Source: a virus (Duplodnaviria; Heunggongvirae; Uroviricota; Caudoviricetes). From it: a stretch of DNA of 32,660 nt. The translations under genes and the position numbers were made by a program. The stretch is from the IMG/VR virus record IMGVR_UViG_2648501400_000018, one strand, 5' to 3'. Each line of letters starts with the position of its first letter. Positions within the stretch are counted from its first letter, which is position 1. Below are positions 7,095-32,660 of this stretch, one piece after another. The notes below the pieces were generated by a model. The model made no database searches and had not been told where the DNA came from. It saw only the letters and a list, made by a program, of their open reading frames with translations.

Positions 7095-7319
7095 TTAGTT
7101 AGGTTCGTGCAGGATGCCTGGCACGATCTCTTTTCCGATGGTGCGGGACAGTTCTTTCAGGATGCGGAATGTAAGACGTCCGCGCGGCAAGTCCTGTTTG
7201 CCCGCCCAACGATCAACAGCTTGCGTAACCGTCCGGGGTTCGTAGCCGGTACTGATGGCGAACTGGCGAAAGTTGCTGCCCTGCTCAATCAGCCGCGCGT
7301 GGATTTGGTGTTTGTTCAT
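7095..7319 (-). CDS. ner: Ner-like DNA-binding regulator (Ner/Nlp family)
   Basis: 74 aa ORF; size and pattern (FAISTGYEPRTVTQAVDRWAGK) resemble Mu Ner; first gene of the leftward early operon and divergent from the repressor-like gene. Confidence 0.55.
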   Translation of the reverse strand: MNKHQIHARLIEQGSNFRQFAISTGYEPRTVTQAVDRWAGKQDLPRGRLTFRILKELSRTIGKEIVPGILHEPN

Positions 7320-7400
7320 TTGTTCCCTCTGAGCTATTATGTACTCAATTGGGTTTATTGTACGTACTCAAACGGGCAAGTCAACGACTAATATGCACAA
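7320..7400. promoter_or_regulatory. Divergent promoter/operator region between ner-like and repressor-like genes with two direct repeats
   Basis: Imperfect direct repeats TATTATGTACTCAA (about 7335-7348) and TATTGTACGTACTCAA (about 7356-7371) sharing GTACTCAA, in the 81 bp gap between divergent regulators. Confidence 0.4.
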
Positions 7401-7811
7401 ATGAACATAAAAGAAAGGCTCAAAAAAATACTCGCTGACAAAGCGTTATCAATCACTGATGCTGCCGCGCAGTGCGATATCCCATATCGTTCTCTACAAA
7501 ACTATCTGCGTGGCGAGCGAGAACCAAATGCGGAGGCATTGATCTCAATAGGTACCCATTTGGGTATAAATATTGATTGGCTGCTCACCGGCAGAGGAGG
7601 AATGCATCTGTCTGAACATGCGGATGTTTTGACTGAGCAGCCGGAATACAGCCATGCCGATTTGAAGTTACTGGAATTTTTGAATCAGTTGGAACCGGAT
7701 ATACGAAAGGATTTATTACGCAGTGCTGAAGAAAAACAGCGAGTGGCCGCCCTAGAAAAAAGATTAGAGGAATTGGCTTTAGAACTCGAAAGCCTAAAAC
7801 GTTCGGCGTAA
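7401..7811 (+). CDS. XRE-family HTH regulator, putative prophage repressor
   Basis: 136 aa ORF; N-terminal HTH (ITDAAAQCDIPYRSLQNYLRGEREPNAEALISIGTHLGINIDWLLTG); C-terminal coiled-coil-like region; divergent from ner-like gene. Confidence 0.55.
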   Translation: MNIKERLKKILADKALSITDAAAQCDIPYRSLQNYLRGEREPNAEALISIGTHLGINIDWLLTGRGGMHLSEHADVLTEQPEYSHADLKLLEFLNQLEPDIRKDLLRSAEEKQRVAALEKRLEELALELESLKRSA

Positions 7812-7849
7812 AGTGTTCTCATTAAGAACAAAACATGAAGGACTATGTT

Positions 7850-8371
7850 ATGAAACACTTTTTCTTACCTTTGGGGGGTTGTGCGCTGTTGTTGTCGGGA
7901 TGTGGTGATGACGATGTTACGCAGCCATCTGCATCGACAACGTTTACTGTTGAAACCGATAGTCCGGTAGTGAAGCGCGAATTGCCCTTTATTCGCCAAC
8001 AGTGTCCAGGACTGGATAAATACGCGGCAAACTTTGATAAATTTAAGGTCTACGACGACACGATGCGTCCGGTGACAACGGTGGAGTTTCACGTCAAGAA
8101 TGAGAACAGCATACCAGGTAATTACACCGCCTCTGATCATACCTGTTTCCTTTTCATCTCCAACAATGCCCACGAAGTGAAGATTTCAAAATCGGCCTGC
8201 CAGTCAGTTTGCTTTGATAAAGCGGATGTGCCGGGTGGGGATTTGGTTGTGAAACTGGATAAAGAAAGAGTTCCTATGACTGCTGATAAGAAACCACCAC
8301 GCGAGGGGTGCCTGATGGTTTACTCGCCAGAGCCGGATGGGGATTACTGGACGTGTCCAAGACAAGATTAA
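7850..8371 (+). CDS. Lipoprotein (signal peptide with lipobox LSGC)
   Basis: Start moved to the second ATG (MKHFFLPLGGCALLLSGCG), which has AAGGA about 7 nt upstream; six further cysteines in the mature part; AT-rich relative to late genes. Confidence 0.6.
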   Translation: MKHFFLPLGGCALLLSGCGDDDVTQPSASTTFTVETDSPVVKRELPFIRQQCPGLDKYAANFDKFKVYDDTMRPVTTVEFHVKNENSIPGNYTASDHTCFLFISNNAHEVKISKSACQSVCFDKADVPGGDLVVKLDKERVPMTADKKPPREGCLMVYSPEPDGDYWTCPRQD

Positions 8372-8448
8372 ACATGTTGTAAACAAAACAAAAAAGCGTG
8401 CAGACAGCACGCATTTACTATCTAACTCTACTGAAGGTTTCAGATTCT

Positions 8449-9480
8449 ATGCCAGCAAATGAACCTGCAAATGCAATCGTTGTAAATCATGTGGTTATTC
8501 ACCTTTTAGATAAAGAGCCGCATGGGGTGACATCCTTACAGCTTAGCCCGGCAGAGAGTGGCGTCACCGCAGCATCACAACGCTTAATAGATGATATCTG
8601 TGGGAAATATGCAGGGCGAATGGGGAAAGGTTATGGCCATTTTGAAGATGACCCTGACAATTACCCGATGCAAACAATCGTATCAGACTATTTAGCTCAA
8701 GAGCATCCTGATGATTTTTACCGTAGCTCCTGTCGCATGATTCGTCATCTGGAATCTCGGATTCAAACAACACCACTCGCTACTGGTGGCTATGTTCTAT
8801 TCGCCCACATTACGATGAATCAACACGAGCATATTCTAGTTGCCATGTTAAGCCCCACGACGGGAACTGCGGTTAACGATGCCTTTGCTATCCAGGAAAG
8901 TGTCTACCTTGATATCGACAAGCTACGTGTGGCGGGGCGTATTGACATTACGTCCTGGCAATCAGGTGCCGAACGTTATATAAGTTTCCTGAAAGGGAGC
9001 AATGCTGTATCTGGTTACTTTAAGCAGTTCCTGGGCTGTAACGATGTTTTGATCGCCAAGCGTGAAACAGAGAAATTGCGGGATGCGTTGAAAGAGTTTG
9101 CGACTGAGCAAGGGCTTGACCCCGCACGTCGAGAGGCTTTTCTGCAAACGGCCCATGACCATTTGAAGCAACTGAGCAAAGATGGTGAGCCTGTAGATCT
9201 GACAACCTTTGTGAACGCAGTCTGGCCACAAGAACCAGAGCTGCTATCGACTAAGCTGGCCAACCAAGAACTGGAACTGTCGGATGGTTTTGTCCCAGAT
9301 GGACGCGTACTAAAAGGAATCATTTCCTTTAAAGGAAAGTCCAATCATTGGGAGCTAAAGTTTGATCGTGCTGGTCTTCAAGATGGTTCAATTGAGTATA
9401 ATCGTAATCAGGATGTAATCATTCTAAGGAATATTCCTGATAGCTTCAGAGAAGAGATACTGGATGAGGTTGAGGAGTGA
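8449..9480 (+). CDS. NdpA/YejK-like nucleoid-associated protein family homolog
   Basis: N-terminal VNHVVIHLL, central GRIDITSWQSGAERYISFLKG...FLG and C-terminal WELKFD...LRNIPDSFREEI match remembered motifs of E. coli YejK; start placed at internal ATG MPANEP by alignment. Confidence 0.6.
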   Translation: MPANEPANAIVVNHVVIHLLDKEPHGVTSLQLSPAESGVTAASQRLIDDICGKYAGRMGKGYGHFEDDPDNYPMQTIVSDYLAQEHPDDFYRSSCRMIRHLESRIQTTPLATGGYVLFAHITMNQHEHILVAMLSPTTGTAVNDAFAIQESVYLDIDKLRVAGRIDITSWQSGAERYISFLKGSNAVSGYFKQFLGCNDVLIAKRETEKLRDALKEFATEQGLDPARREAFLQTAHDHLKQLSKDGEPVDLTTFVNAVWPQEPELLSTKLANQELELSDGFVPDGRVLKGIISFKGKSNHWELKFDRAGLQDGSIEYNRNQDVIILRNIPDSFREEILDEVEE

Positions 9481-10685
9481 GTATCAGTTTTGAGCAACTG
9501 GTGGGATTGTACAGGCAGATTACTTTCGGTAACGATATGGCCGAAGGTACGCTGGTGCTTACCCCAGAATCCTGCGAGTTGCTCAACGCTTTGCTTGAGG
9601 ACACCGATACATATGGGATCTCTCTGGCACAAGGTGAAGTAGTGGCTGGCCAGCAGGTGTCGCTTTTTGTGAACGCACCAAAGACAAAGCTAGGTCTGCT
9701 ATGCCGTAATTTGGCGGCTTTGTTAAAGTCGCCAAAACACCAAAGCGAGGAACCTTCCCGCTACTACCTGATCGACAGCCAATTTTATAGTTCGGATGCG
9801 CCAACATCCGTAATTGAAAACTACCGCACTATCTTAACATTTCTGCGCCTGCTTAAAGAAAAGTCGGCATACTTTGATACCAGTGCATATGAATGCGTTT
9901 TTTTCCGTGCCGATGTATTTAAATTACCTATACGTTACAGTGCAGAAACCGTAGAAAATCTTGATAAAACGACACTCGATGAACTCATTCAGCAGTTTTC
10001 TGACGACACACACAAAGAGCAGAAACTCTCGCTTTTAATTGAAAGCATCCAGTTAATCGGCCAGGAAACGGAAAACAATAAAGTCTTTGAGTATGCACTG
10101 AAGAACATTGATAAATTAAAAGTTGAGTTCGATAAGGGTTATCGCCTCTTCACTTCTGGGTTCTCATACGAAAAGGTTCTGGATGAACTTAGAACCGCCA
10201 AAGTTGAAGAAATGGGACGTATCCATAAAGTCTTTTCAGATATCCAAAACCAGATACTGGGTATCCCAGTCGCAACCATTATCGTCGCGACACAAATCAA
10301 GAAAGCAAGTGGTGATGTCTATCAAACCATTATCAATAGAGCAGTTTTTTTAGGGGCCTTTGTTTTTGCTACGTTGGTTATGTTGACTTTGTTCAACCAG
10401 TTACAGACGTTAACTGCTATCAAAGAAGAACTTCGACATAAAAAGACTCAGGTTGATAAAAAATATGCATCAATAAAAAATGACATTGATAGTATCTTTT
10501 GCTCTGTACGTAAACGTCTTTGCCGTCAGGTTATTGCGTTCTGGTTTATTATTATGTTCCTTGTTGTCGCTATTATATCGACAGGATTAATTTACCTATA
10601 CTGCACATACCCTGAAACATGGAATATCTTGGTTACAAAAGTGATGTCATGGCGGCATCACTTGAGCAATAAGCCCACTCCTTAA
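9477..10685 (+). CDS. Membrane protein with two C-terminal transmembrane helices, translationally coupled to the NdpA-like gene
   Basis: GTG start overlaps the upstream stop (GTGA); about 270 aa soluble N-domain then AVFLGAFVFATLVMLTLF and VIAFWFIIMFLVVAIISTGLIYLY. Confidence 0.5.
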   Translation: MSISFEQLVGLYRQITFGNDMAEGTLVLTPESCELLNALLEDTDTYGISLAQGEVVAGQQVSLFVNAPKTKLGLLCRNLAALLKSPKHQSEEPSRYYLIDSQFYSSDAPTSVIENYRTILTFLRLLKEKSAYFDTSAYECVFFRADVFKLPIRYSAETVENLDKTTLDELIQQFSDDTHKEQKLSLLIESIQLIGQETENNKVFEYALKNIDKLKVEFDKGYRLFTSGFSYEKVLDELRTAKVEEMGRIHKVFSDIQNQILGIPVATIIVATQIKKASGDVYQTIINRAVFLGAFVFATLVMLTLFNQLQTLTAIKEELRHKKTQVDKKYASIKNDIDSIFCSVRKRLCRQVIAFWFIIMFLVVAIISTGLIYLYCTYPETWNILVTKVMSWRHHLSNKPTP

Positions 10686-10750
10686 ACCCCTTTAAAAGCC
10701 TTCCTGCCAGCCATCCCCCACACTGCCTTCATCACCCAATGGAGGCACTT

Positions 10751-11038
10751 ATGAAAAATCTTTTCCCGCGTTTATCCGGCTGGCTGTTTGCCGCAGTTGT
10801 TTTGTTTGTACAAATAGTCGCGATCTCTCCGCAACAGGTTCCGGTGGTGGGTTACAAATTAAGCCTGATCTCACTGGCGGCGGTGCTGGGCTACTGGCTT
10901 GATCGCAGCCTGTTTCCCTATGCGCGACCTAATCATTTTTATCTGACGGAAGGTGAGCAACTATTGTTTGCTGCGTCCATGCTGCGCCGAGCCGTGATTG
11001 TCGCTGCTGTGTGCCTGGCCGTAGCGATGGGGATGTGA
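10751..11038 (+). CDS. Putative holin (three hydrophobic segments)
   Basis: Start placed at ATG preceded by GGAGG; hydrophobic stretches WLFAAVVLFVQIVAI, LSLISLAAVLGYWL, AVIVAAVCLAVAMGM; immediately upstream of the endolysin. Confidence 0.4.
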   Translation: MKNLFPRLSGWLFAAVVLFVQIVAISPQQVPVVGYKLSLISLAAVLGYWLDRSLFPYARPNHFYLTEGEQLLFAASMLRRAVIVAAVCLAVAMGM

Positions 11039-11040
11039 CT

Positions 11041-11757
11041 ATGGGCTGGCCACAAATTACCTGGATTGTGTTGGTCTCGCTGTCGTTAGGGATAGAGATG
11101 ATGATGCACAGCAGGACGCGTAAGCACAATTTCTGGGGACACTTAGCCAGTGTATTAGTAGTCGCTGGTTTGCTCTGGTGCGGCGGCTTTTTCAGCCAGG
11201 CGCACGCCGCCGAACCGCCCACCGCCGCGAAACCTTACCGCGCCGAATTGGTGCGTAATGCCCGCGCGGTATGGGGGATGGATGCGCCTGTCGCCGATTT
11301 CGCCGGGCAGTTCCAGCAGGAATCCGGCTGGAATCCCGCCGCCCGTTCACCCGTTGGTGCGCAGGGGATGGCGCAGTTTATGCCCTCCACTGCCGACTGG
11401 ATCAGCAAACAATTCCCGGAACTACGTTCCCGCGAGCCGTTCAATCCGTCGTGGGCCATCCGCGCGCTGATGCAGTACGACCAGTGGCTGTGGCAGCGCG
11501 TGAGTGGGCGCGATAACTGCCAGCGGATGGCGTTCACCTTAAGCGCCTATAACGGCGGCTTAGGCTGGGTGAACCGCGATAAAAAACTGGCGACGCAGCG
11601 CGGATTAAATGCTGCCGTCTGGTTCGATGCGGTGGCGACGGTCAACGCCGGGCGCAGCGCCGCCAACTGGCGCGAAAACCGGGGTTATCCGCAACGCATC
11701 CTGTACCAGAACGCGCCGCGCTATCTGTCATGGGGAGGGGCTAACTGTGTTCGATAA
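11041..11757 (+). CDS. Lytic transglycosylase-type endolysin (SLT domain) with N-terminal signal or SAR-like segment
   Basis: SLT-like motifs QESGWNPAA and GAQGMAQFMPSTADW; N-terminal hydrophobic stretch LASVLVVAGLLWCGGFFSQAHA; ATG 3 nt after the holin stop. Confidence 0.7.
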   Translation: MGWPQITWIVLVSLSLGIEMMMHSRTRKHNFWGHLASVLVVAGLLWCGGFFSQAHAAEPPTAAKPYRAELVRNARAVWGMDAPVADFAGQFQQESGWNPAARSPVGAQGMAQFMPSTADWISKQFPELRSREPFNPSWAIRALMQYDQWLWQRVSGRDNCQRMAFTLSAYNGGLGWVNRDKKLATQRGLNAAVWFDAVATVNAGRSAANWRENRGYPQRILYQNAPRYLSWGGANCVR

Positions 11758-12340
11758 ACTCAAAACGGCGGGGTTAGCCGTCACGCTGATACTGCTATTC
11801 GTCGTGTTTGGCGGGTATTTCGCGTGGCTGCAAGGCCACAAACACGGCTACGAGAAGGCGCAGACTGAATGCCTGCGCCTGCAAAAACAGCAGGCCAAGG
11901 CCGGGCAACGGGCGTTGCAGGAGGAAATAAACCGCAGCCAGCAGCAGTTGATTCACATCCGGGAAAGCGAGCAGACCTATCTCACCCGGACAGAGGAACT
12001 CACTGCACGCAACGCCGAACTACAGAGGAAAATTAACGATGTTACGCAGCATTACGTTGACGAAAAAGGCAAGGCTCATCCTTTGGCCTGCGTGTTTACT
12101 CGCGGCTTCGTGCAGCAGTACAACGCCTCCCTCGGCGTGTCCGCCCCGGATGCTGCCGCCGCTACCCGCGACGCTGGCGCAGCCGCCGCAGCCGTTCAGG
12201 GCGCTGACGCCCGGTTACGCGCCTCCGGCGTCAGCCAGCGCGACATCCTCGCCAATCTCGCCGACAACGGCCAGCGCTGCCAGCAGTTAGCGCTCCAGGT
12301 GCGCGGCTTGCAGAACTATATCGCGGAGGTGTCGCGATGA
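11747..12340 (+). CDS. Rz-like inner-membrane spanin
   Basis: Start at in-frame GTG (VFDKLKTAGLAVTLILLFVVFGGYFAWL: N-terminal TM) followed by a Q/R/E-rich coiled-coil region; directly follows the endolysin. Confidence 0.55.
   Translation: MFDKLKTAGLAVTLILLFVVFGGYFAWLQGHKHGYEKAQTECLRLQKQQAKAGQRALQEEINRSQQQLIHIRESEQTYLTRTEELTARNAELQRKINDVTQHYVDEKGKAHPLACVFTRGFVQQYNASLGVSAPDAAAATRDAGAAAAAVQGADARLRASGVSQRDILANLADNGQRCQQLALQVRGLQNYIAEVSR
12039..12290 (+). CDS. Rz1-like outer-membrane lipoprotein spanin embedded in the +1 frame of the Rz-like gene
   Basis: 83 aa ORF wholly inside the Rz-like gene; signal peptide ending LLAASC then a proline-rich mature region, the classic embedded Rz1 architecture. 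Confidence 0.5.
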   Translation: MLRSITLTKKARLILWPACLLAASCSSTTPPSACPPRMLPPLPATLAQPPQPFRALTPGYAPPASASATSSPISPTTASAASS

Positions 12341-28282: not shown

Positions 28283-28985
28283 GTTACCGCTTCAACCGCC
28301 GCTCGCCGGGGATGAACGCTTTACCCGGCTGGCAAATCTTGCCGCTGAACGCTTCGCACAACTCGATCTGACCGCGCTTCTGATTTATCTGGTGGATGCC
28401 ACGGCGCTGCCGTCGCTGGCAGAACAGTTCCACGTTCAGGGGCTGGAAGGCTGGCTGTTTGCCCGCGATGAGCGACAAAAGCGCGATCTGATCAAGCAGG
28501 CCATTGAGCTGCACCGCTATCGCGGTACGCCGTGGGCAGTGCGTCAGGTACTGAAGATTCTGGCGTTGGACGGCGATATCAGCGAGTGGTTTGAGTATGG
28601 CGGTAAGCCGTACTTTTTCCGCATGGATGTCACGCTTGAGACGCGCGGGCTGACTGAGGATGAATTTAACGCGCTGATTGTGCTGATCCATGAGTACAAG
28701 AACGTCCGCTCAAAGCTGGAGATGCTGACTATCTGGCTGATTAACCAGAGCCAGATCCCGGTTATCGCCAGTGCTGTTCAGGGCGGCGAGATTGCTACCG
28801 TTCTGCCGTGGATTGCGGAGAGCGTGAGTCAGTCGTCTGCGGTTTATCTGGCGACGGAGTGTTTGAGTGCAGAGGTGGTAACGGTGTTGCCTCCGCTGCA
28901 TGGCAATGTTGAGCAGACCAGCGTTATGAGTGTTGGAGCGGGCTGCTGGAGTATTGAGTTTGTCACTGTTTACCCGGAGGAGTAA
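28275..28985 (+). CDS. Tail protein I-like (baseplate)
   Basis: 236 aa ORF between the J-like gene and the tail fibre gene, overlapping both, as P2 gpI. Confidence 0.6.
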   Translation: MDKLPLQPPLAGDERFTRLANLAAERFAQLDLTALLIYLVDATALPSLAEQFHVQGLEGWLFARDERQKRDLIKQAIELHRYRGTPWAVRQVLKILALDGDISEWFEYGGKPYFFRMDVTLETRGLTEDEFNALIVLIHEYKNVRSKLEMLTIWLINQSQIPVIASAVQGGEIATVLPWIAESVSQSSAVYLATECLSAEVVTVLPPLHGNVEQTSVMSVGAGCWSIEFVTVYPEE

Positions 28986-30685
28986 TGGCGAGTGAATTTT
29001 TTACCATTTTAACCGCCGCTGGCCGCGCGAAGATTGCTGCGGCGCTGGCGGAACAAAAGCAGATAGTGCTGCAAACAATGGTCGTTGGCGACGGCGGCGG
29101 GCAGTATGCCGAACCGAAAGAGAGCCAGACAAAGGTGGTGCGTGAAGTCTGGCGCGGGTCACTGAATACGCTGAAAATCGCCCCGGAAAACCCGGCGTGG
29201 GTGATTGCCGAGGCGGTACTGCCGGAAGCGAAAGGCGGCTGGTATATCCGCGAGGTGGGATTGCTGGATATGGACGGCGTGCTGATTGCCATCGGCAAGT
29301 TCCCGGAAACCTATAAGCCGAAGCTGCCTGCCGGGGCCAGTAAGCAAATTGTGATCCGCGCTGTGATGGAAGTGACGAACGCGGCGGCGGTAACGCTGAT
29401 GGTTGATCCGTCGCTGGTGATGGCAACGGTAGATTATGTGGACTCCAGTATTGAAGAGCACGAAAGATCACATAATCACCCGGACGCAACGCTGACGCAG
29501 AAAGGCTTTACGCAGCTTAACAGCTCCACCAATAGCACGCTGGAAACGCAGGCAGCAACGCCGAAGGCGGTGAAGGCGGCGATGGATAAGGCGAATGAGG
29601 CACTGGAAAAAGCTGGGGCTGATAAAGCGCATAAACATCCGTGGGCCGATATTACCGGGGTGCCGGATGGGACAACGGCGCAGAAAGGGGTTGTGAAGCT
29701 TAATAGCTCAACGAACAGTACCAGTACGACGGAGGCTGCGACACCGAGTGCGGTTAAGGCGGCATATGACCTGGCGAATGGTAAGGCGGCGGGGAGCCAT
29801 AAACATGCCTGGGGCGATATTACCGGGGTACCGGATGGCACTACGGCGCAAAAAGGGATCGTAAAGCTCAACAGCGCGACGAACAGCACCAGTACTACCG
29901 AAGCGGCCACGCCCGGCGCAGTGAAGGCGGCGTATGACCTGGCGAACGGGAAAGCGGCTTCCAGCCATACTCACGCATGGAGTCAGATTACCGGCGTACC
30001 GGATGCAACTACAGCGCAAAAAGGGGTTGTGAAGCTTAATAGCGCGACGAACAGTACCAGTACGACTGAAGCCGCAACGCCGAGCGCGGTTAAGGCGGCG
30101 TATGACAAGGCGAATACAGCAATCTCCAGTTTTGCTCTTTTCACGTCGAATGGGACGTTTACGGTGCCAGTCGGGGTAACGAAAGTGATGGTGGAAATGA
30201 TTGGAGGTGGAGGTGGTGGCGGCGGCGGTGGTGTGGGTGGTGGTGAGCGAATTGGTTATCCGACAGCAGGTAAACCATCACTTTTTGTTCAAGGGATTGT
30301 TGCTGTGAACTCTGGACAAAATGTAACCGTCACAGTCGGCGGAGGCGGTGTTGGGGGATCATCAAAAGTAGATACTGGTGGTGGTTCGATGACCGGGAGT
30401 AATGGGTACGCCGGAGGAAACTCAATTTTCTTAACGCTCACTTCTGTTGGTGGTAGCGGCGGCGGCGGTGCATTGCCAGATTCTGGTCCTGGCAACGCAT
30501 TAAATGAGCCAGGTTCTGATTCAACGCATGGCTATGGCGGGGGGACTAAGTATAACTCGCAGAAAAATGCCGTAGGTTATGGTTCGAGTGGTGCGGCTGG
30601 TACCTCTAAAGGCGTCAGAACTGTTGAAGGGGACTCTACAGCAGGTGGCAATGGTGCTTCAGGTTTTGTCAGAATATGGTGGTAA
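28985..30685 (+). CDS. Tail fibre protein (P2 gpH-like N-terminus, internal tandem repeats, glycine-rich low-GC C-terminal domain)
   Basis: N-terminus (FFTILTAAGRAKIAAALA...VVGDGGG...VWRGSLN...WYIREVGLLDMDGVLIAIGKFPETYKP) matches the conserved gpH anchor domain; about four repeats of AQKG[VI]VKLNS[AS]TNSTSTTEAATP.AVKAAYD; poly-Gly C-terminus. Confidence 0.75.
   Translation: MASEFFTILTAAGRAKIAAALAEQKQIVLQTMVVGDGGGQYAEPKESQTKVVREVWRGSLNTLKIAPENPAWVIAEAVLPEAKGGWYIREVGLLDMDGVLIAIGKFPETYKPKLPAGASKQIVIRAVMEVTNAAAVTLMVDPSLVMATVDYVDSSIEEHERSHNHPDATLTQKGFTQLNSSTNSTLETQAATPKAVKAAMDKANEALEKAGADKAHKHPWADITGVPDGTTAQKGVVKLNSSTNSTSTTEAATPSAVKAAYDLANGKAAGSHKHAWGDITGVPDGTTAQKGIVKLNSATNSTSTTEAATPGAVKAAYDLANGKAASSHTHAWSQITGVPDATTAQKGVVKLNSATNSTSTTEAATPSAVKAAYDKANTAISSFALFTSNGTFTVPVGVTKVMVEMIGGGGGGGGGGVGGGERIGYPTAGKPSLFVQGIVAVNSGQNVTVTVGGGGVGGSSKVDTGGGSMTGSNGYAGGNSIFLTLTSVGGSGGGGALPDSGPGNALNEPGSDSTHGYGGGTKYNSQKNAVGYGSSGAAGTSKGVRTVEGDSTAGGNGASGFVRIWW
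29477..30118 (+). repeat. Tandem coding repeats (about 168-183 bp period, about 3.7 copies) inside the tail fibre gene
   Basis: Repeat units start at about residues 171, 232, 288 and 344 of the fibre protein; nucleotide-level near-identity is visible between units. Confidence 0.6.
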
Positions 30686-30688
30686 CAC

Positions 30689-31291
30689 ATGAAATATGCG
30701 TATTTTGAACCCTCATCAATGAAGGTTTTAGACTGGCTGGATACCGAACAATTATCCTTTGTTTTGCCTGACAGTGTTGTTTCGGTAACTGATGAGCAAT
30801 GGTGTTATCGTGATCGTGAATGCTGGGTCAATATTTCAACCACAGAAATCATCACAACACCTCCACCCGGTGATTTTTATCGGCTTGATGGTGATAAGTG
30901 GGTGTATGACGCAACCAGCTATACTGCTGCGCTAGACGGTGCTAAGTCACTAGTTGTTAAGGCAATCAAGGCGCTACGCGATGAAGTCACTGCCGATTAT
31001 ATCATTATCGGCGACTATCACTTTCACAGCGATGCCAGCAGTCGTATCCAGCAAATGTCACTCACCAGGATGGGGCAAACGAAGCAAATCCCCAAAGGCT
31101 TAATGTGGCAGACCAAAAACCTCGGACTTCTCGAGCTAACCAATGAAATCGCGGCGCAGTTTGAGTCCATTACAATGGATCACGATATGCGCCTCTTTGC
31201 CAATGCCCAGCGACATATTGCCGCCGTTGAGGCGCTGGAAGATATCCTGGCAGTTCAGGAGTATGACTACTCTACGGGGTGGCAACCATGA
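30689..31291 (+). CDS. Hypothetical protein downstream of tail fibre (possible fibre assembly/accessory protein)
   Basis: 200 aa ORF starting 4 nt after the fibre stop; AT-rich like the fibre C-terminus; no motif recognised. Confidence 0.3.
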   Translation: MKYAYFEPSSMKVLDWLDTEQLSFVLPDSVVSVTDEQWCYRDRECWVNISTTEIITTPPPGDFYRLDGDKWVYDATSYTAALDGAKSLVVKAIKALRDEVTADYIIIGDYHFHSDASSRIQQMSLTRMGQTKQIPKGLMWQTKNLGLLELTNEIAAQFESITMDHDMRLFANAQRHIAAVEALEDILAVQEYDYSTGWQP

Positions 31292-31740
31292 GGCCGGTGT
31301 ATCTGGCGTTCTATAAAGGGCGAGCCGATCATCATGGGTTCGCACGTCTTTCCGACTGGCTGACGCGGCTGGTGACGCGGGGTGAGTATTCTCACTGCGA
31401 GCTGGCTGTTGACCAGGGTAACGGCGAGTTTCTTTGTTATTCGTCGTCGGTGCGTGACAAGGGGGTGCGCTGTAAGCAAATGCCGCTGCCACTCGATAAA
31501 TGGGATCTTATCGCGCTAAATGCGCTACCAACCAGTGTGGAGCAGTTCTTCCGTCGAAACGACGCCATGAAATATGACTGGCTGGGGGCTGTGGGATTCG
31601 TTGTTTTTAATCGTGGACGGGAGAACAAATATTTCTGTAGCGAGTTTTGCGCAGATTTTCTTGGACTGGTCGATAGCTGGCGTTATTCACCCAATATGCT
31701 CCACGCGCTGGCCAGCAGTATTCAGACTATGAAGTTATAA
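31288..31740 (+). CDS. Hypothetical protein (Cys/His-containing, possibly enzymatic)
   Basis: Start placed at internal ATG giving an ATGA overlap with the upstream gene; motifs YSHCELAV and KYFCSEFCADF; function unknown. Confidence 0.3.
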   Translation: MRPVYLAFYKGRADHHGFARLSDWLTRLVTRGEYSHCELAVDQGNGEFLCYSSSVRDKGVRCKQMPLPLDKWDLIALNALPTSVEQFFRRNDAMKYDWLGAVGFVVFNRGRENKYFCSEFCADFLGLVDSWRYSPNMLHALASSIQTMKL

Positions 31741-31886: not shown

Positions 31887-32660
31887 ATGAAAACATTACC
31901 CATTATTCCGTGGCCCGGCGGTAAGCGTCGTCTGGCCAAAAAGTTATTACCGTTATTTCCTGAGCACCAGTGTTATGTAGAGCCATTCTGCGGCGGTGCA
32001 GCCTTGTATTTCATGAAGGAGCCGGTTGAAGCTGAAGTCCTGAACGATATCAACGGCGAACTGGTGAATCTGTACCGTGTGGTTAAAAATCATCTTGAAG
32101 AGTTTGTGCGCCAGTTCAAGTGGGCGTTGAGCAGCAGGCAGATTTTTGAATGGTCGAAAATGACCATCCCGGAGACGCTAACTGATATTCAGCGTGCAGC
32201 GCGGTTTTATTATCTCCAGAAGCAATCATTCGGAGGGAAAGTGGAATCACAGACGTATGGAACGGCGACCACTTCTGCACCACGGCTTAATCTGCTAAGG
32301 CTGGAAGAGGAGTTGAGCGCCGCCCATTTGCGGCTATCACGCACGTTTGTAGAACATTTACCGTGGCGTACCTGCATTGAGAAGTATGATCGCCCGCACA
32401 CACTGTTCTATTGCGATCCCCCGTATTGGGGAACGGAGGGCTACGGTGTTGAATTTGGACTGGAGCAGTACACCCAACTTGCAGAGTTGGCCAGAACGAT
32501 AAAAGGCAGGATGTTGATCAGTGTGAACGATATCCCGGAGATGCGTGAAACCTTTGCGGACTTGTCGATTGATACGGTAGATATTCGCTATACGTTGAGC
32601 GGTGGGCCTAATGCTAATCGCTCGAAAGTCAGCCGTGAGCTGGTCATTCGTAACTGGTAA
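31887..32660 (+). CDS. Dam-family (D12-class) N6-adenine DNA methyltransferase
   Basis: N-terminal SAM-binding pattern PGGKRRL...CYVEPFCGGAALYF; catalytic DPPY in LFYCDPPYWG; C-terminal RMLISVND; arrangement parallels E. coli Dam. Confidence 0.75.
   Translation: MKTLPIIPWPGGKRRLAKKLLPLFPEHQCYVEPFCGGAALYFMKEPVEAEVLNDINGELVNLYRVVKNHLEEFVRQFKWALSSRQIFEWSKMTIPETLTDIQRAARFYYLQKQSFGGKVESQTYGTATTSAPRLNLLRLEEELSAAHLRLSRTFVEHLPWRTCIEKYDRPHTLFYCDPPYWGTEGYGVEFGLEQYTQLAELARTIKGRMLISVNDIPEMRETFADLSIDTVDIRYTLSGGPNANRSKVSRELVIRNW

What the first reader, a model, noticed from the sequence alone, without database searches (positions are those of the whole stretch)
7835..8371. Cysteine-rich lipoprotein directly behind the repressor gene: candidate superinfection-exclusion factor
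The ORF has a clear lipoprotein signal peptide (LLSGC) and six further cysteines, and sits 24-39 nt after the repressor-like gene in the same orientation. Prophage lipoproteins in this position (T5 Llp, Cor-type proteins) block receptors against superinfecting phages.
Basis: inference. Interest (0 to 1): 0.5.

Follow-up and report, generated by a model that had tools for sequence, protein, structure and literature searches.

The report
Conserved prophage lipoprotein behind the repressor
The ORF is a real, disulfide-bonded envelope lipoprotein that always sits just after the repressor in BcepMu-like transposable prophages; it may shield lysogens from other phages, but it is unrelated to Llp or Cor and its function is untested.

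Summary
Window 7850-8371 (alternative start 7835) encodes a 173-aa lipoprotein precursor: signal peptide, lipobox L-S-G-C, and six further cysteines that form three co-varying pairs. It lies 38 nt after an HTH_3 repressor and is under strong purifying selection (dN/dS about 0.1).

The window is a BcepMu-like transposable prophage. In all ~50 related loci held with enough flank (about 35 distinct contigs), a gene carrying this domain follows the repressor on the same strand. It follows either directly or after a Flk_N-like membrane protein. In the loci where the downstream sequence was folded, a hairpin follows its stop codon. Then come variable cargo and the lysis cassette.

The protein matches no Pfam, NCBIfam or PADLOC model, and its confident AlphaFold model has no PDB or BFVD neighbour. 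It is not homologous to Llp, Cor or Ltp, and those receptor-plug genes sit beside tail genes, not beside the repressor. The domain occurs only in phages and plasmids in the contexts I read. It can be lipid-anchored or anchored in the inner membrane, and one member is fused to Ltp exclusion repeats.

The best reading, at 0.4 confidence, is a prophage-expressed periplasmic exclusion factor of a new family that acts after adsorption. The function is inferred, not shown.

The parts
7338..7376 (.). Two 16-nt direct repeats (TATGTACTCAATTGGG / TACGTACTCAAACGGG, 23-nt spacing) in the ner-repressor divergent intergenic region. They are candidate operators.
   Evidence: That they act as operators is inference.
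7357..7384 (-). Sigma-70-like promoter (TTGACT, 16 nt, TACAAT; 10 of 12 matches) pointing into the Ner-like early operon.
   Evidence: This is a consensus match only.
7401..7811 (+). Repressor-like gene: 136 aa, HTH_3 N-terminus, coiled-coil C-terminus. It is the first gene of the proposed immunity operon.
   Evidence: Pfam HTH_3 at E 4e-8 with a weak Phage_CI_repr hit. PHROG transcriptional repressor families. It is divergent from the Ner-like gene at 7095-7319.
7838..7842 (+). Shine-Dalgarno AAGGA, 7 nt before the ATG at 7850. The 94%-identity block shared with the E. coli A35 prophage also starts here.
7850..8371 (+). Lipoprotein CDS of 173 aa including the stop codon. The alternative upstream ATG is at 7835.
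7850..7903 (+). Type II (lipoprotein) signal peptide MKHFFLPLGGCALLLSGC. The lipobox is L-S-G-C and the acylated Cys18 is at 7901-7903. Position +2 is Gly and +3 is Asp.
   Evidence: rule-based; invariant Cys. Outer-membrane sorting is inferred from the E. coli +2 rule, which is established knowledge.
7904..7942 (+). Acidic, low-complexity tether (residues 19-31). It is variable in length and sequence among homologues.
   Evidence: pLDDT below 50 for residues 1-28. Indel-rich in alignment A1. dN is higher here.
7943..8269 (+). Core periplasmic domain (residues about 32-140). It carries the motifs LPxIRxxCPGLDKYA and GHxC, and the Cys pairs C52/C121 and C99/C117.
   Evidence: The profile search matches query positions about 40-140 in 127 cluster representatives. 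It also matches the C-terminal domain of phrog_10002. Model pLDDT is about 90.
8270..8368 (+). Optional C-terminal tail (residues 141-173) with the motif KPPRxGCLxV...WxCP and the third Cys pair, C154/C169. Versions of 132-148 aa lack it. In versions of 318-371 aa a helical insert separates it from the core.
8396..8412 (.). GC-rich hairpin (GCGTGC-AGACA-GCACGC) 25 nt after the stop codon. It is flanked by an A-run and a T-rich tail, so it looks like a bidirectional terminator and is the proposed end of the repressor-lipoprotein transcript.
   Evidence: It is the top terminator-like site. Non-homologous hairpins occupy the same position in 14 of the 15 related loci folded. The A35 variant keeps the pairing through a G-U wobble.

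Best explanation
**Shown.** Window 7850-8371 encodes a secreted, lipid-anchored protein of about 155 mature residues with three disulfide pairs. It is the conserved gene that follows the repressor in BcepMu-like transposable prophages. A terminator-like hairpin separates it from a variable cargo slot and from the lysis cassette.

**Inferred.**
- It is co-transcribed with the repressor in lysogens.
- It acts there as a superinfection-exclusion or envelope-defence factor by binding a conserved periplasm-exposed step of incoming-phage genome delivery. This would be a post-adsorption block, as with Ltp or T4 Sp/Imm, rather than an Llp/Cor-type plug of one outer-membrane receptor.

It represents a new sequence and fold family. 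In more distant BcepMu-like relatives (about 55% MuA identity in the GC-rich contigs) it is the third gene of a repressor, Flk_N-like membrane protein, lipoprotein operon. The window's lineage keeps only the lipoprotein.
For: **Lipoprotein and disulfides.** Lipobox rule. Invariant lipobox Cys. The C52/C121 pair is gained and lost together: 12 both, 15 neither, 0 discordant among close homologues; 88, 24 and 11 in the wide family. C99/C117 is present together in 118 of 123.

**Real, constrained gene.** dN/dS is 0.09-0.11.

**Operon position.**
- The gap after the repressor is 38 nt, and the top terminator-like hairpin lies at 8396-8412.
- Non-homologous hairpins occupy the same place in other lineages.
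- In every locus with flank, the domain gene follows the repressor on the same strand.
- This holds even where the repressor type (E. coli A35) or the downstream cargo has been swapped.

**Low-GC island.** Repressor 0.44 and lipoprotein 0.48, against a backbone of 0.55-0.61.

**Mobile-element family.** All contexts read were phage or plasmid, and 90 of 123 members hit phrog_10002.

**Link to exclusion.** One member fuses the domain to two Ltp superinfection-exclusion repeats (PF07553, E 5.5e-28). Ltp is a lysogeny-module lipoprotein that blocks DNA injection (PMC3952083).

**Why periplasmic rather than a receptor plug.**
- The same domain is inner-membrane anchored, by a transmembrane helix on a roughly 20-residue linker or by Asp at +2, in other members.
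- The tail fibre is a Mu/P2-type fibre 21 kb away.
- Its distal part differs between phages whose lipoproteins are 83-87% identical.
Against: - There is no functional or expression data of any kind.
- There is no homology to any characterised exclusion or defence protein: Pfam, PHROG function labels, NCBIfam and PADLOC give nothing, and neither do PDB and BFVD fold searches.
- The gene behaves like a vertically inherited core gene. It is about 40% identical where MuA is 55% and is under strong purifying selection, which would equally fit a role in the phage's own life cycle.
- The Ltp fusion is a single metagenomic protein on a 4-kb contig.
- BcepMu itself lacks the domain.
- Co-transcription with the repressor rests on spacing and hairpins only. 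No plus-strand promoter was found by the consensus scan.
Confidence: 0.4

Rival explanations
1. It is an Llp/Cor-type receptor plug. The outer-membrane lipoprotein would bind the periplasmic face of the outer-membrane protein used as receptor by this phage and its relatives, and inactivate it.
For: It is predicted to be an outer-membrane inner-leaflet lipoprotein with disulfides, as Llp is (Llp facts from bioRxiv 10.64898/2026.03.26.714494). It is probably expressed in the lysogen.
Against: - Similarity to Cor is limited to the signal peptide.
- No PDB or BFVD fold match.
- It is about 2.5 times larger than Llp or Cor.
- The gene is 21 kb from the tail fibre, whereas llp, cor and the mEpimmI lpp genes adjoin tail or receptor-binding genes.
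- The tail-fibre tips differ while the lipoprotein stays 83-87% identical.
- Inner-membrane-anchored homologues could not reach the outer membrane.
- Mu/P2-type fibres usually bind LPS (established knowledge, not tested here).
Confidence: 0.1
2. It has a phage life-cycle or regulatory role. It would be the periplasmic arm of a repressor-linked trans-envelope module, acting with the Flk_N-like tail-anchored protein found in relatives. That module would sense envelope state to tune lysogeny or induction, or would control the timing of the adjacent lysis cassette.
For: - Conservation looks like that of a core gene, with strong purifying selection.
- Relatives carry the three-gene unit repressor, Flk_N-like protein, lipoprotein with gaps of 8-16 nt.
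- The repressor C-terminus and the Flk_N-like N-terminus share a motif (FHGxVGQxxxGxI / GDVxGNVxxGxVT).
- Some Flk_N-like proteins carry the same periplasmic domain themselves.
- The gene lies upstream of holin-SLT-Rz.
Against: - The window, and most enterobacterial relatives, lack the Flk_N-like partner and have a different repressor type, yet they keep the lipoprotein under selection.
- A lipoprotein cannot signal to the cytoplasm on its own.
- A terminator-like hairpin and variable cargo separate it from the lysis genes.
- The o-spanin role is already filled by the embedded Rz1.
Confidence: 0.2
3. It is a lysogenic-conversion lipoprotein that benefits the host for reasons unrelated to phages. 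Examples would be Bor- or TraT-like serum resistance, envelope stress tolerance, or adhesion.
For: It is a lysogen-expressed envelope lipoprotein in a low-GC island. Precedents such as lambda Bor come from established knowledge. The hosts are enteric bacteria and insect pathogens.
Against: - No similarity to Bor, TraT or any Pfam family.
- Homologues occur in phages and plasmids from varied environments and GC contents, always in the same operon slot. This argues for a function centred on the mobile element rather than one specific to a host niche.
Confidence: 0.15
4. It is a third component of the downstream DS-1-like defence pair (NA37/YejK-like protein at 8449-9480 plus the membrane protein at 9477-10685).
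For: Same strand and adjacent position. The block from 7838 to 10786 is shared with the E. coli A35 prophage. The neighbours hit the NCBIfam DS1_1 and DS1_2 antiphage models.
Against: - The lipoprotein occurs without the pair in most loci, which carry Dam methyltransferase, DUF2441 or other cargo instead.
- The pair is 98% identical between the window and A35, while the lipoprotein is 83% identical with dS of 0.83.
- A hairpin lies between them.
- The published DS-1 is a two-gene system.
Confidence: 0.03

Closest known systems
Ltp, the superinfection-exclusion lipoprotein of Streptococcus phage TP-J34 (Pfam PF07553)
   Same: It is a lipoprotein encoded in the lysogeny module and transcribed in the prophage, tethered outside the cytoplasm, where it blocks DNA injection (PMC3952083). 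One member of the present domain family is fused to two Ltp repeats.
   Different: The window protein has no Ltp repeat (no PF07553 hit at E <= 0.01). The hosts are Gram-negative. The fold is a cysteine-rich alpha/beta domain rather than HTH-like repeats. The function here is untested.
T5 Llp and the Cor proteins of phi80, HK022 and N15
   Same: They are small phage lipoproteins of Gram-negative hosts that sit in the outer-membrane inner leaflet, are stabilised by a disulfide and exclude phages.
   Different: They are about 61 mature residues with one disulfide, against about 155 residues with three. There is no sequence similarity beyond the signal peptide and no fold similarity. Their genes adjoin receptor-binding or tail genes, not the repressor. 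Their specificity tracks the receptor, which is not seen here.
Lambda rexA-rexB (immunity-operon exclusion genes) and P22 sieA/sieB
   Same: They are exclusion functions expressed from the prophage together with or alongside the repressor, and they include membrane proteins (established knowledge; P22 SieA in PMC10883804). The operon repressor, Flk_N-like membrane protein, lipoprotein in relatives is laid out like cI-rexA-rexB.
   Different: There is no homology. Rex and Sie proteins are inner-membrane or cytoplasmic, not lipoproteins.
phrog_10002 / BcepMu gp18-type proteins (Flk_N-like cytoplasmic domain, transmembrane helix, periplasmic domain)
   Same: The periplasmic C-terminal domain of phrog_10002 is homologous to the core domain of the window protein (E 2e-12; 90 of 123 family members hit it). 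These proteins occupy the same operon slot behind the repressor.
   Different: They are anchored by a transmembrane helix and have a cytoplasmic domain of about 190 aa that the window protein lacks. Their function is also unknown.
Lambda Bor and plasmid TraT lysogenic-conversion or surface-exclusion lipoproteins
   Same: They are outer-membrane lipoproteins encoded by mobile elements and expressed in the carrier cell (established knowledge).
   Different: The window protein matched no Pfam family at all at E <= 0.01. Whether this Pfam copy holds Bor and TraT models rests on my memory and was not verified. Their gene positions also differ.

Membership tests
Bacterial lipoprotein (signal peptidase II substrate) | N-terminal signal peptide with a positive n-region and hydrophobic h-region, followed by a lipobox [LVI][ASTVI][GAS]C | tested here: met
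   MKH / FFLPLGGCALLL / L-S-G-C18. It passes a PS51257-style rule. The Cys is invariant and the lipobox is conserved in 28 homologues. Only 2 ORFs in the window pass the rule. SignalP and LipoP were not run.
Bacterial lipoprotein (signal peptidase II substrate) | Actual lipidation, globomycin-sensitive processing and membrane localisation | not testable with these tools
   This needs labelling and fractionation experiments. Outer-membrane sorting is inferred from Gly at +2 under the E. coli +2 rule.
Llp / Cor receptor-blocking exclusion lipoproteins | Sequence or fold homology of the mature protein (about 61 aa, beta-rich, with one N-to-C disulfide) | tested here: not met
Llp / Cor receptor-blocking exclusion lipoproteins | Gene adjacent to the receptor-binding or tail genes and co-segregating with receptor specificity | tested here: not met
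   The gene is 21 kb from the tail fibre at 28985-30685. Phages with lipoproteins 83-87% identical have divergent distal fibre parts (only 3 informative contigs).
Llp / Cor receptor-blocking exclusion lipoproteins | Blocks adsorption or infection by phages that use a given outer-membrane receptor | not testable with these tools
   This needs plating and adsorption assays.
Ltp-type exclusion lipoproteins (PF07553) | Presence of Lipoprotein_Ltp repeat domains | tested here: not met
   No PF07553 hit in the window protein at E <= 0.01. Only the distant member P0046 has two Ltp repeats appended to the domain.
Ltp-type exclusion lipoproteins (PF07553) | Encoded in the lysogeny module and expressed in the prophage state | tested here: inconclusive
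   The position behind the repressor is conserved, with a hairpin after the gene. Expression was not measured.
Unnamed 'CPGLDKYA' periplasmic domain family (C-terminal domain of phrog_10002) | Significant profile match over the core domain, with the conserved P-G...Y...P...G-x-x-C...K-x-x-C positions | tested here: met
   phrog_10002 at E 2e-12. 127 cluster representatives at E < 1e-3. Near-invariant P53, G54, Y58, P89, G96, C99, K114 and C117.
DS-1 anti-phage system (DefensePredictor) | The protein is one of the two DS-1 components or is obligately linked to them | tested here: not met
   The lipoprotein has no NCBIfam hit. It occurs without the NA37 pair in most loci. DS-1 is listed as two genes.
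o-spanin (Rz1-type outer-membrane lipoprotein of the lysis cassette) | A short, proline-rich lipoprotein embedded in or adjacent to the i-spanin gene | tested here: not met
   The Rz1-like ORF is at 12057-12290, inside Rz at 11609-12340. The target is a folded 155-aa domain 3.2 kb upstream of Rz, separated from it by a hairpin and cargo.

The most novel reading that the evidence does not exclude
The lipoprotein is the periplasmic component of a previously undescribed three-part immunity operon of BcepMu-like transposable phages: repressor, Flk_N-like tail-anchored membrane protein, disulfide-rich lipoprotein. In this reading the repressor's C-terminal tail and the membrane protein's N-terminus share an interaction motif. 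Envelope events sensed in the periplasm, such as an incoming phage or envelope damage, would then be coupled directly to the prophage repressor. That would make it an envelope-wired lysis-lysogeny or exclusion switch built on a new protein fold.
Probability: 0.1. Interest if true: 0.7.

Novelty: new variant of a known kind. Interest (0 to 1): 0.4.

Why it matters
Prophage-expressed envelope proteins decide which phages can still enter a lysogen. That matters for phage therapy host range and for how prophages compete with each other.

This gene marks a conserved, completely unannotated family. It has no Pfam model and no structural neighbour. It occupies the slot behind the repressor in a widespread group of Mu-like prophages of Escherichia, Salmonella, Klebsiella, Citrobacter, Serratia and Photorhabdus.

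If it is an exclusion factor, it adds a new fold and probably a new target to the short list of Gram-negative exclusion lipoproteins. If it is not, the strict conservation of a periplasmic protein in a repressor operon still needs an explanation.

The survey also defines a cargo slot between this gene and the holin. In this window that slot carries a distant relative of the recently validated DS-1 defence pair.

Tried and rejected
**Searches that found nothing for the lipoprotein.**
- Pfam, NCBIfam and PADLOC: no hit.
- Foldseek against PDB and BFVD: nothing with E below 0.09.
- The family profile against all PDB sequences: one chance hit at E 0.98.

**Tools or queries that failed.**
- The afdb50 fold library was not installed.
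I replaced them with degenerate DNA patterns for P-x5-CPGLDKYA.
- The Planctomycetota hit L027 looks like a chance or fragmentary match.

**Ideas rejected.**
- BcepMu gp19, which has the same length and slot, is unrelated (hhalign probability 0.1).
- The o-spanin idea fails because Rz1 is found elsewhere.
- Membership of the DS-1 pair fails on separability.
- A lysozyme or transglycosylase-inhibitor idea (Ivy, MliC, Pli) was considered, but it has no family or fold support.

**Other dead ends.**
- Scans of the cargo genes for defence functions found only Dam methyltransferase, DUF2441 and an IS21 insertion. The PADLOC 'DrmD' hit is the IstB ATPase of that IS21.
- The tail-fibre co-variation test rests on only three informative contigs.
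- Literature searches found no paper describing this gene.
Full report
**1. The observation.**
ORF 7835-8371 (+) is present. Two in-frame ATGs are possible. The second, at 7850, has an AAGGA Shine-Dalgarno 7 nt upstream. PGAP uses it for the orthologue in E. coli A35, and it matches the N-termini of homologues.

The 173-aa product starts MKHFFLPLGGCALLLSGC|GDDD. That is a basic n-region, a hydrophobic h-region and a canonical lipobox L-S-G-C. Both possible starts pass a PROSITE-PS51257-style rule that I coded. Across all six frames and all start codons of the 32.7-kb window, only one other ORF passes it: an Rz1-like spanin embedded in the Rz gene. The signal is therefore not a chance feature.

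The mature protein has six further cysteines: C52, C99, C117, C121, C154 and C169. The repressor-like gene (7401-7811; HTH_3, weak Phage_CI_repr) ends 23 or 38 nt upstream on the same strand. SignalP and LipoP were not available.

**2. It is a real, constrained, extracytoplasmic protein.**
Thirty close homologues (49-88% identity) exist, all annotated 'hypothetical'. They come from Escherichia, Salmonella, Citrobacter and Apirhabdus. The lipobox Cys is invariant. dN/dS against two orthologues with unsaturated dS is 0.09 and 0.11, and it is lower in the folded domain than in the signal peptide and tether.

The cysteines behave as three pairs.
- C52 and C121 are either both present or both replaced. 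Among close homologues the counts are 12 both, 15 neither, 0 discordant. In the wide family they are 88, 24 and 11.
- C99 and C117 are both present in 118 of 123 members.
- C154 and C169 travel with an optional C-terminal tail.

Paired gain and loss is the expected signature of disulfides in an oxidising compartment. Position +2 is Gly and +3 is Asp. By the E. coli +2 rule (established knowledge) this predicts release to the outer membrane. Residues 19-31 form an acidic tether that varies through indels.

**3. Where it sits.**
The window is a BcepMu-like transposable prophage.
- On the minus strand lie a MuA-like DDE transposase, a MuB-like ATPase, DUF3102, a MarR-like gene and a Ner-like gene.
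- On the plus strand lie the repressor, the lipoprotein, two cargo genes, then holin, SLT endolysin and Rz/Rz1, followed by Mu-type head and contractile-tail genes. BcepMu has the same layout.

The strongest terminator-like hairpin in the region (8396-8412) lies 25 nt after the lipoprotein stop codon. The repressor, the lipoprotein and the two cargo genes form a low-GC island of 0.41-0.48, against a backbone of 0.55-0.61.

**4. Comparative context.**
About 50 loci with enough flank were collected, from about 35 distinct contigs. They come from IMG/VR, GTDB genomes, E. coli RefSeq, GenBank phages and metagenome assemblies. In every one, a gene encoding this domain follows the repressor on the same strand.

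This holds in four situations.
- When the immunity region has been swapped. In E. coli A35 the shared 94% block starts exactly at 7838, and the repressor and Ner differ.
- When the downstream cargo differs. Cargo includes a convergent Dam-like methyltransferase in 14 loci, DUF2441, an IS21 insertion, unknown ORFs, or almost nothing.
- In Photorhabdus.
- In GC-rich relatives that share only about 55% MuA identity and about 40% lipoprotein identity.

Downstream of the stop codon, 14 of the 15 loci folded show a stable hairpin, although the hairpin sequences are not homologous between lineages. The A35 copy keeps the pairing through a G-U wobble. The two cargo genes are 98% identical between the window and A35, while the lipoprotein is 83% identical with dS of 0.83. 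The lipoprotein is therefore neither part of the immunity-specific cassette nor part of the cargo.

**5. The domain family.**
A profile search of 1.84 billion cluster representatives found 127 clusters at E < 1e-3. The conserved core is query residues about 40-140. Near-invariant positions are P53, G54, Y58, P89, G96, C99, K114 and C117, within the motifs (W/L)PxI(K/R)xxCPGLDKYA and GHxC. Ninety of 123 members hit phrog_10002, whose function is unknown. The window protein matches that family's C-terminal domain.

The architectures vary.
- Lipoproteins of 132-148 aa with the core only.
- Lipoproteins of 173-188 aa with the core plus the Cys-pair tail.
- Forms of 318-371 aa (P0033, P0157, P0037) with a helical insert between core and tail.
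- Proteins with an N-terminal transmembrane helix, or a zinc ribbon plus a transmembrane helix.
- Lipoproteins with Asp at +2.
- Proteins of about 325 aa with a cytoplasmic Flk_N-like domain, a transmembrane helix and then the domain.

The domain therefore works in the periplasm whichever membrane anchors it. One member (P0046) is a transmembrane helix, the domain and two Lipoprotein_Ltp repeats (PF07553, E 5.5e-28). It lies on a 4-kb contig next to an HTH regulator.

Every distant context I could read was a mobile element.
- A lambda-type-terminase phage with a Bro-N neighbour.
- A phage-like contig near an integrase.
- A 55-kb record of Eleftheria terrae that I read as a plasmid from its KfrA, integrase and DUF932 genes.
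- More BcepMu-like prophages.

**6. A three-gene unit in relatives.**
In the more distant BcepMu-like phages the order is repressor, Flk_N-like membrane protein, lipoprotein, with gaps of 8-16 nt.
- Serratia has the Flk_N-like protein carrying the domain and also the separate lipoprotein.
- One E. coli prophage has only the transmembrane form.
- BcepMu has gp17 and gp18 but no copy of the domain.

Repressors that precede Flk_N-like proteins end in a motif that recurs at the N-terminus of the next protein: GDVLGNVIKGNVT / GDVGNVVSGDVT, or FHGAVGQAVAGNI / FHGEVGQAAGGDI. The window's repressor is a different type with a coiled-coil C-terminus, and the window has no Flk_N-like gene.

**7. Structure.**
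AlphaFold2 on the 28-sequence alignment gave a mean pLDDT of 80.7, and about 90 for residues 30-173. The model has an N-terminal helix pair packed on an antiparallel sheet, a short helix at 115-122 and a C-terminal hairpin. The fold searches gave the following.
- Foldseek against PDB: no E below 0.2.
- Foldseek against BFVD: no E below 0.09.
- AFDB was unavailable.

No family or fold assignment is possible.

**8. Comparison with known exclusion lipoproteins.**
- Llp is a 7-kDa lipoprotein of the outer-membrane inner leaflet with one essential disulfide. It binds the periplasmic face of FhuA, and its gene lies immediately upstream of the receptor-binding protein gene (bioRxiv 10.64898/2026.03.26.714494).
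- HK022 cor (77 aa) lies between the J-like tail protein and an stf-like minor tail protein gene.
- The mEpimmI exclusion lipoproteins lie in the structural cluster and track the receptor used (PMC11893012).

The window protein shares only the signal peptide with Cor. It matches nothing in the PDB and is 2.5 times larger. It lies 21 kb from a Mu/P2-type tail fibre, whose distal part differs between phages that carry lipoproteins 83-87% identical (three contigs only).

The better positional analogues are Ltp and, from established knowledge, lambda rexAB and P22 sie. Ltp lies in the lysogeny module, is transcribed in the prophage and blocks DNA injection (PMC3952083).

**9. Mechanism.**
Shown: a constrained, disulfide-paired lipoprotein fixed behind the repressor, with a hairpin after it in the loci folded.

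Inferred: co-transcription with the repressor in lysogens, an outer-membrane inner-leaflet anchor, and action in the periplasm.

The domain also functions when anchored to the inner membrane on a linker of about 20 residues, and it is uncoupled from the fibre tip. For both reasons I favour binding to a conserved periplasm-exposed step of genome delivery over a receptor plug. Confidence is 0.4 for exclusion acting after adsorption in the periplasm, with the Llp-like receptor plug scored separately at about 0.1.

The rivals are as follows.
- A role in the phage's own regulation or lysis, linked to the Flk_N-like module (0.2).
- A host-benefit conversion factor (0.15).
- A third DS-1 component (0.03, rejected on separability).
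- An o-spanin (rejected).

About 0.1 remains unassigned.

**10. Verdict.**
This is an unannotated, mobile-element-restricted lipoprotein family with no detectable structural relative. It is best filed as a new variant of the known kind 'lysogeny-module envelope protein, candidate exclusion factor'. It is of moderate interest. The most interesting open point is why a periplasmic protein is so strictly wired to the repressor operon.

Noticed in passing
window 8449-9480 and 9477-10685: The two cargo genes are an NA37/YejK-like nucleoid-associated protein and a 402-aa protein with C-terminal transmembrane helices. They hit the NCBIfam models DS1_1_antiphage (E 2e-18, 66 bits against a cutoff of 330) and DS1_2_antiphage (E 1e-20, 74 bits against a cutoff of 315). 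That makes them a distant relative of the validated two-gene DS-1 defence system (DefensePredictor, PMC13092281), in the same gene order. A 98%-identical pair sits in the E. coli A35 prophage.
   Followed up: partly
window 8372-10738; L002, L009, L013-L024, L026, L029, L034, L036, L044: The interval between the lipoprotein's hairpin and the holin is a variable cargo slot of 0.45-4 kb in BcepMu-like prophages. It most often holds a convergent Dam-like methyltransferase (14 loci). Other contents are DUF2441, an IS21 insertion and unknown ORFs. Only the window and A35 cargo resembles a known defence system.
   Followed up: partly
L010 4373-5841; L034 4543-5987; L077 4874-5984; L078 4976-5986; L033 (BcepMu) 9226-10421: Many BcepMu-like repressors are followed, often with overlapping stop and start codons, by a Flk_N-like (PF27202) tail-anchored or transmembrane protein. 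The repressor's C-terminal tail repeats the motif found at that protein's N-terminus (GDVxGNVxxGxVT or FHGxVGQxxxGxI). In L078 the motif recurs at the start of a further downstream ORF. This suggests an interaction between the repressor and a membrane protein. None of this is present in the window.
   Followed up: partly
window 12057-12290 (+), inside 11609-12340: An embedded, out-of-frame, proline-rich lipoprotein ORF (TTG start; MTKKARLILWPACLLAASC|SSTTPPSACPP) lies within the Rz-like spanin gene. It is the Rz1-type o-spanin, as in BcepMu gp23/gp24.
   Followed up: yes
window 7838 (junction); L001 8549-9012: There is a mosaic breakpoint. Identity to the E. coli A35 and OkiPb01694 prophages starts exactly at the lipoprotein's ribosome-binding site. 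Their repressor and Ner-like genes are different, so this is a heteroimmune swap. Only 2 of 5426 complete E. coli genomes carry the near-identical block.
   Followed up: yes
window 7338-7376: Two 16-nt direct repeats with 23-nt spacing, plus a small palindrome (ACTCAATTG), lie between the divergent Ner-like and repressor genes. They are candidate operators.
   Followed up: no
P0046 (L076 2585-3532): A metagenomic protein joins an N-terminal transmembrane helix, the 'CPGLDKYA' domain and two Ltp superinfection-exclusion repeats. Its neighbours are an HTH_3 regulator and a DUF4258 protein on a 4-kb contig.
   Followed up: partly
window 31279-31740 and 31887-32660: After the tail-fibre genes lie a 153-aa ORF that hits a PHROG labelled enoyl-CoA hydratase/carnitine racemase-like (moron category) and a DNA methyltransferase that runs off the window end.
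   Followed up: no
IMG/VR contigs UViG_2579778940_000019 (L006, L055) and UViG_2654587726_000014 (L007): These viral contigs are essentially the same phage as the window. The early genes, the cargo pair and the tail fibre are 94-100% identical at the protein level, the lipoprotein is 98%, and the holin and SLT endolysin are about 81-82%.
   Followed up: no
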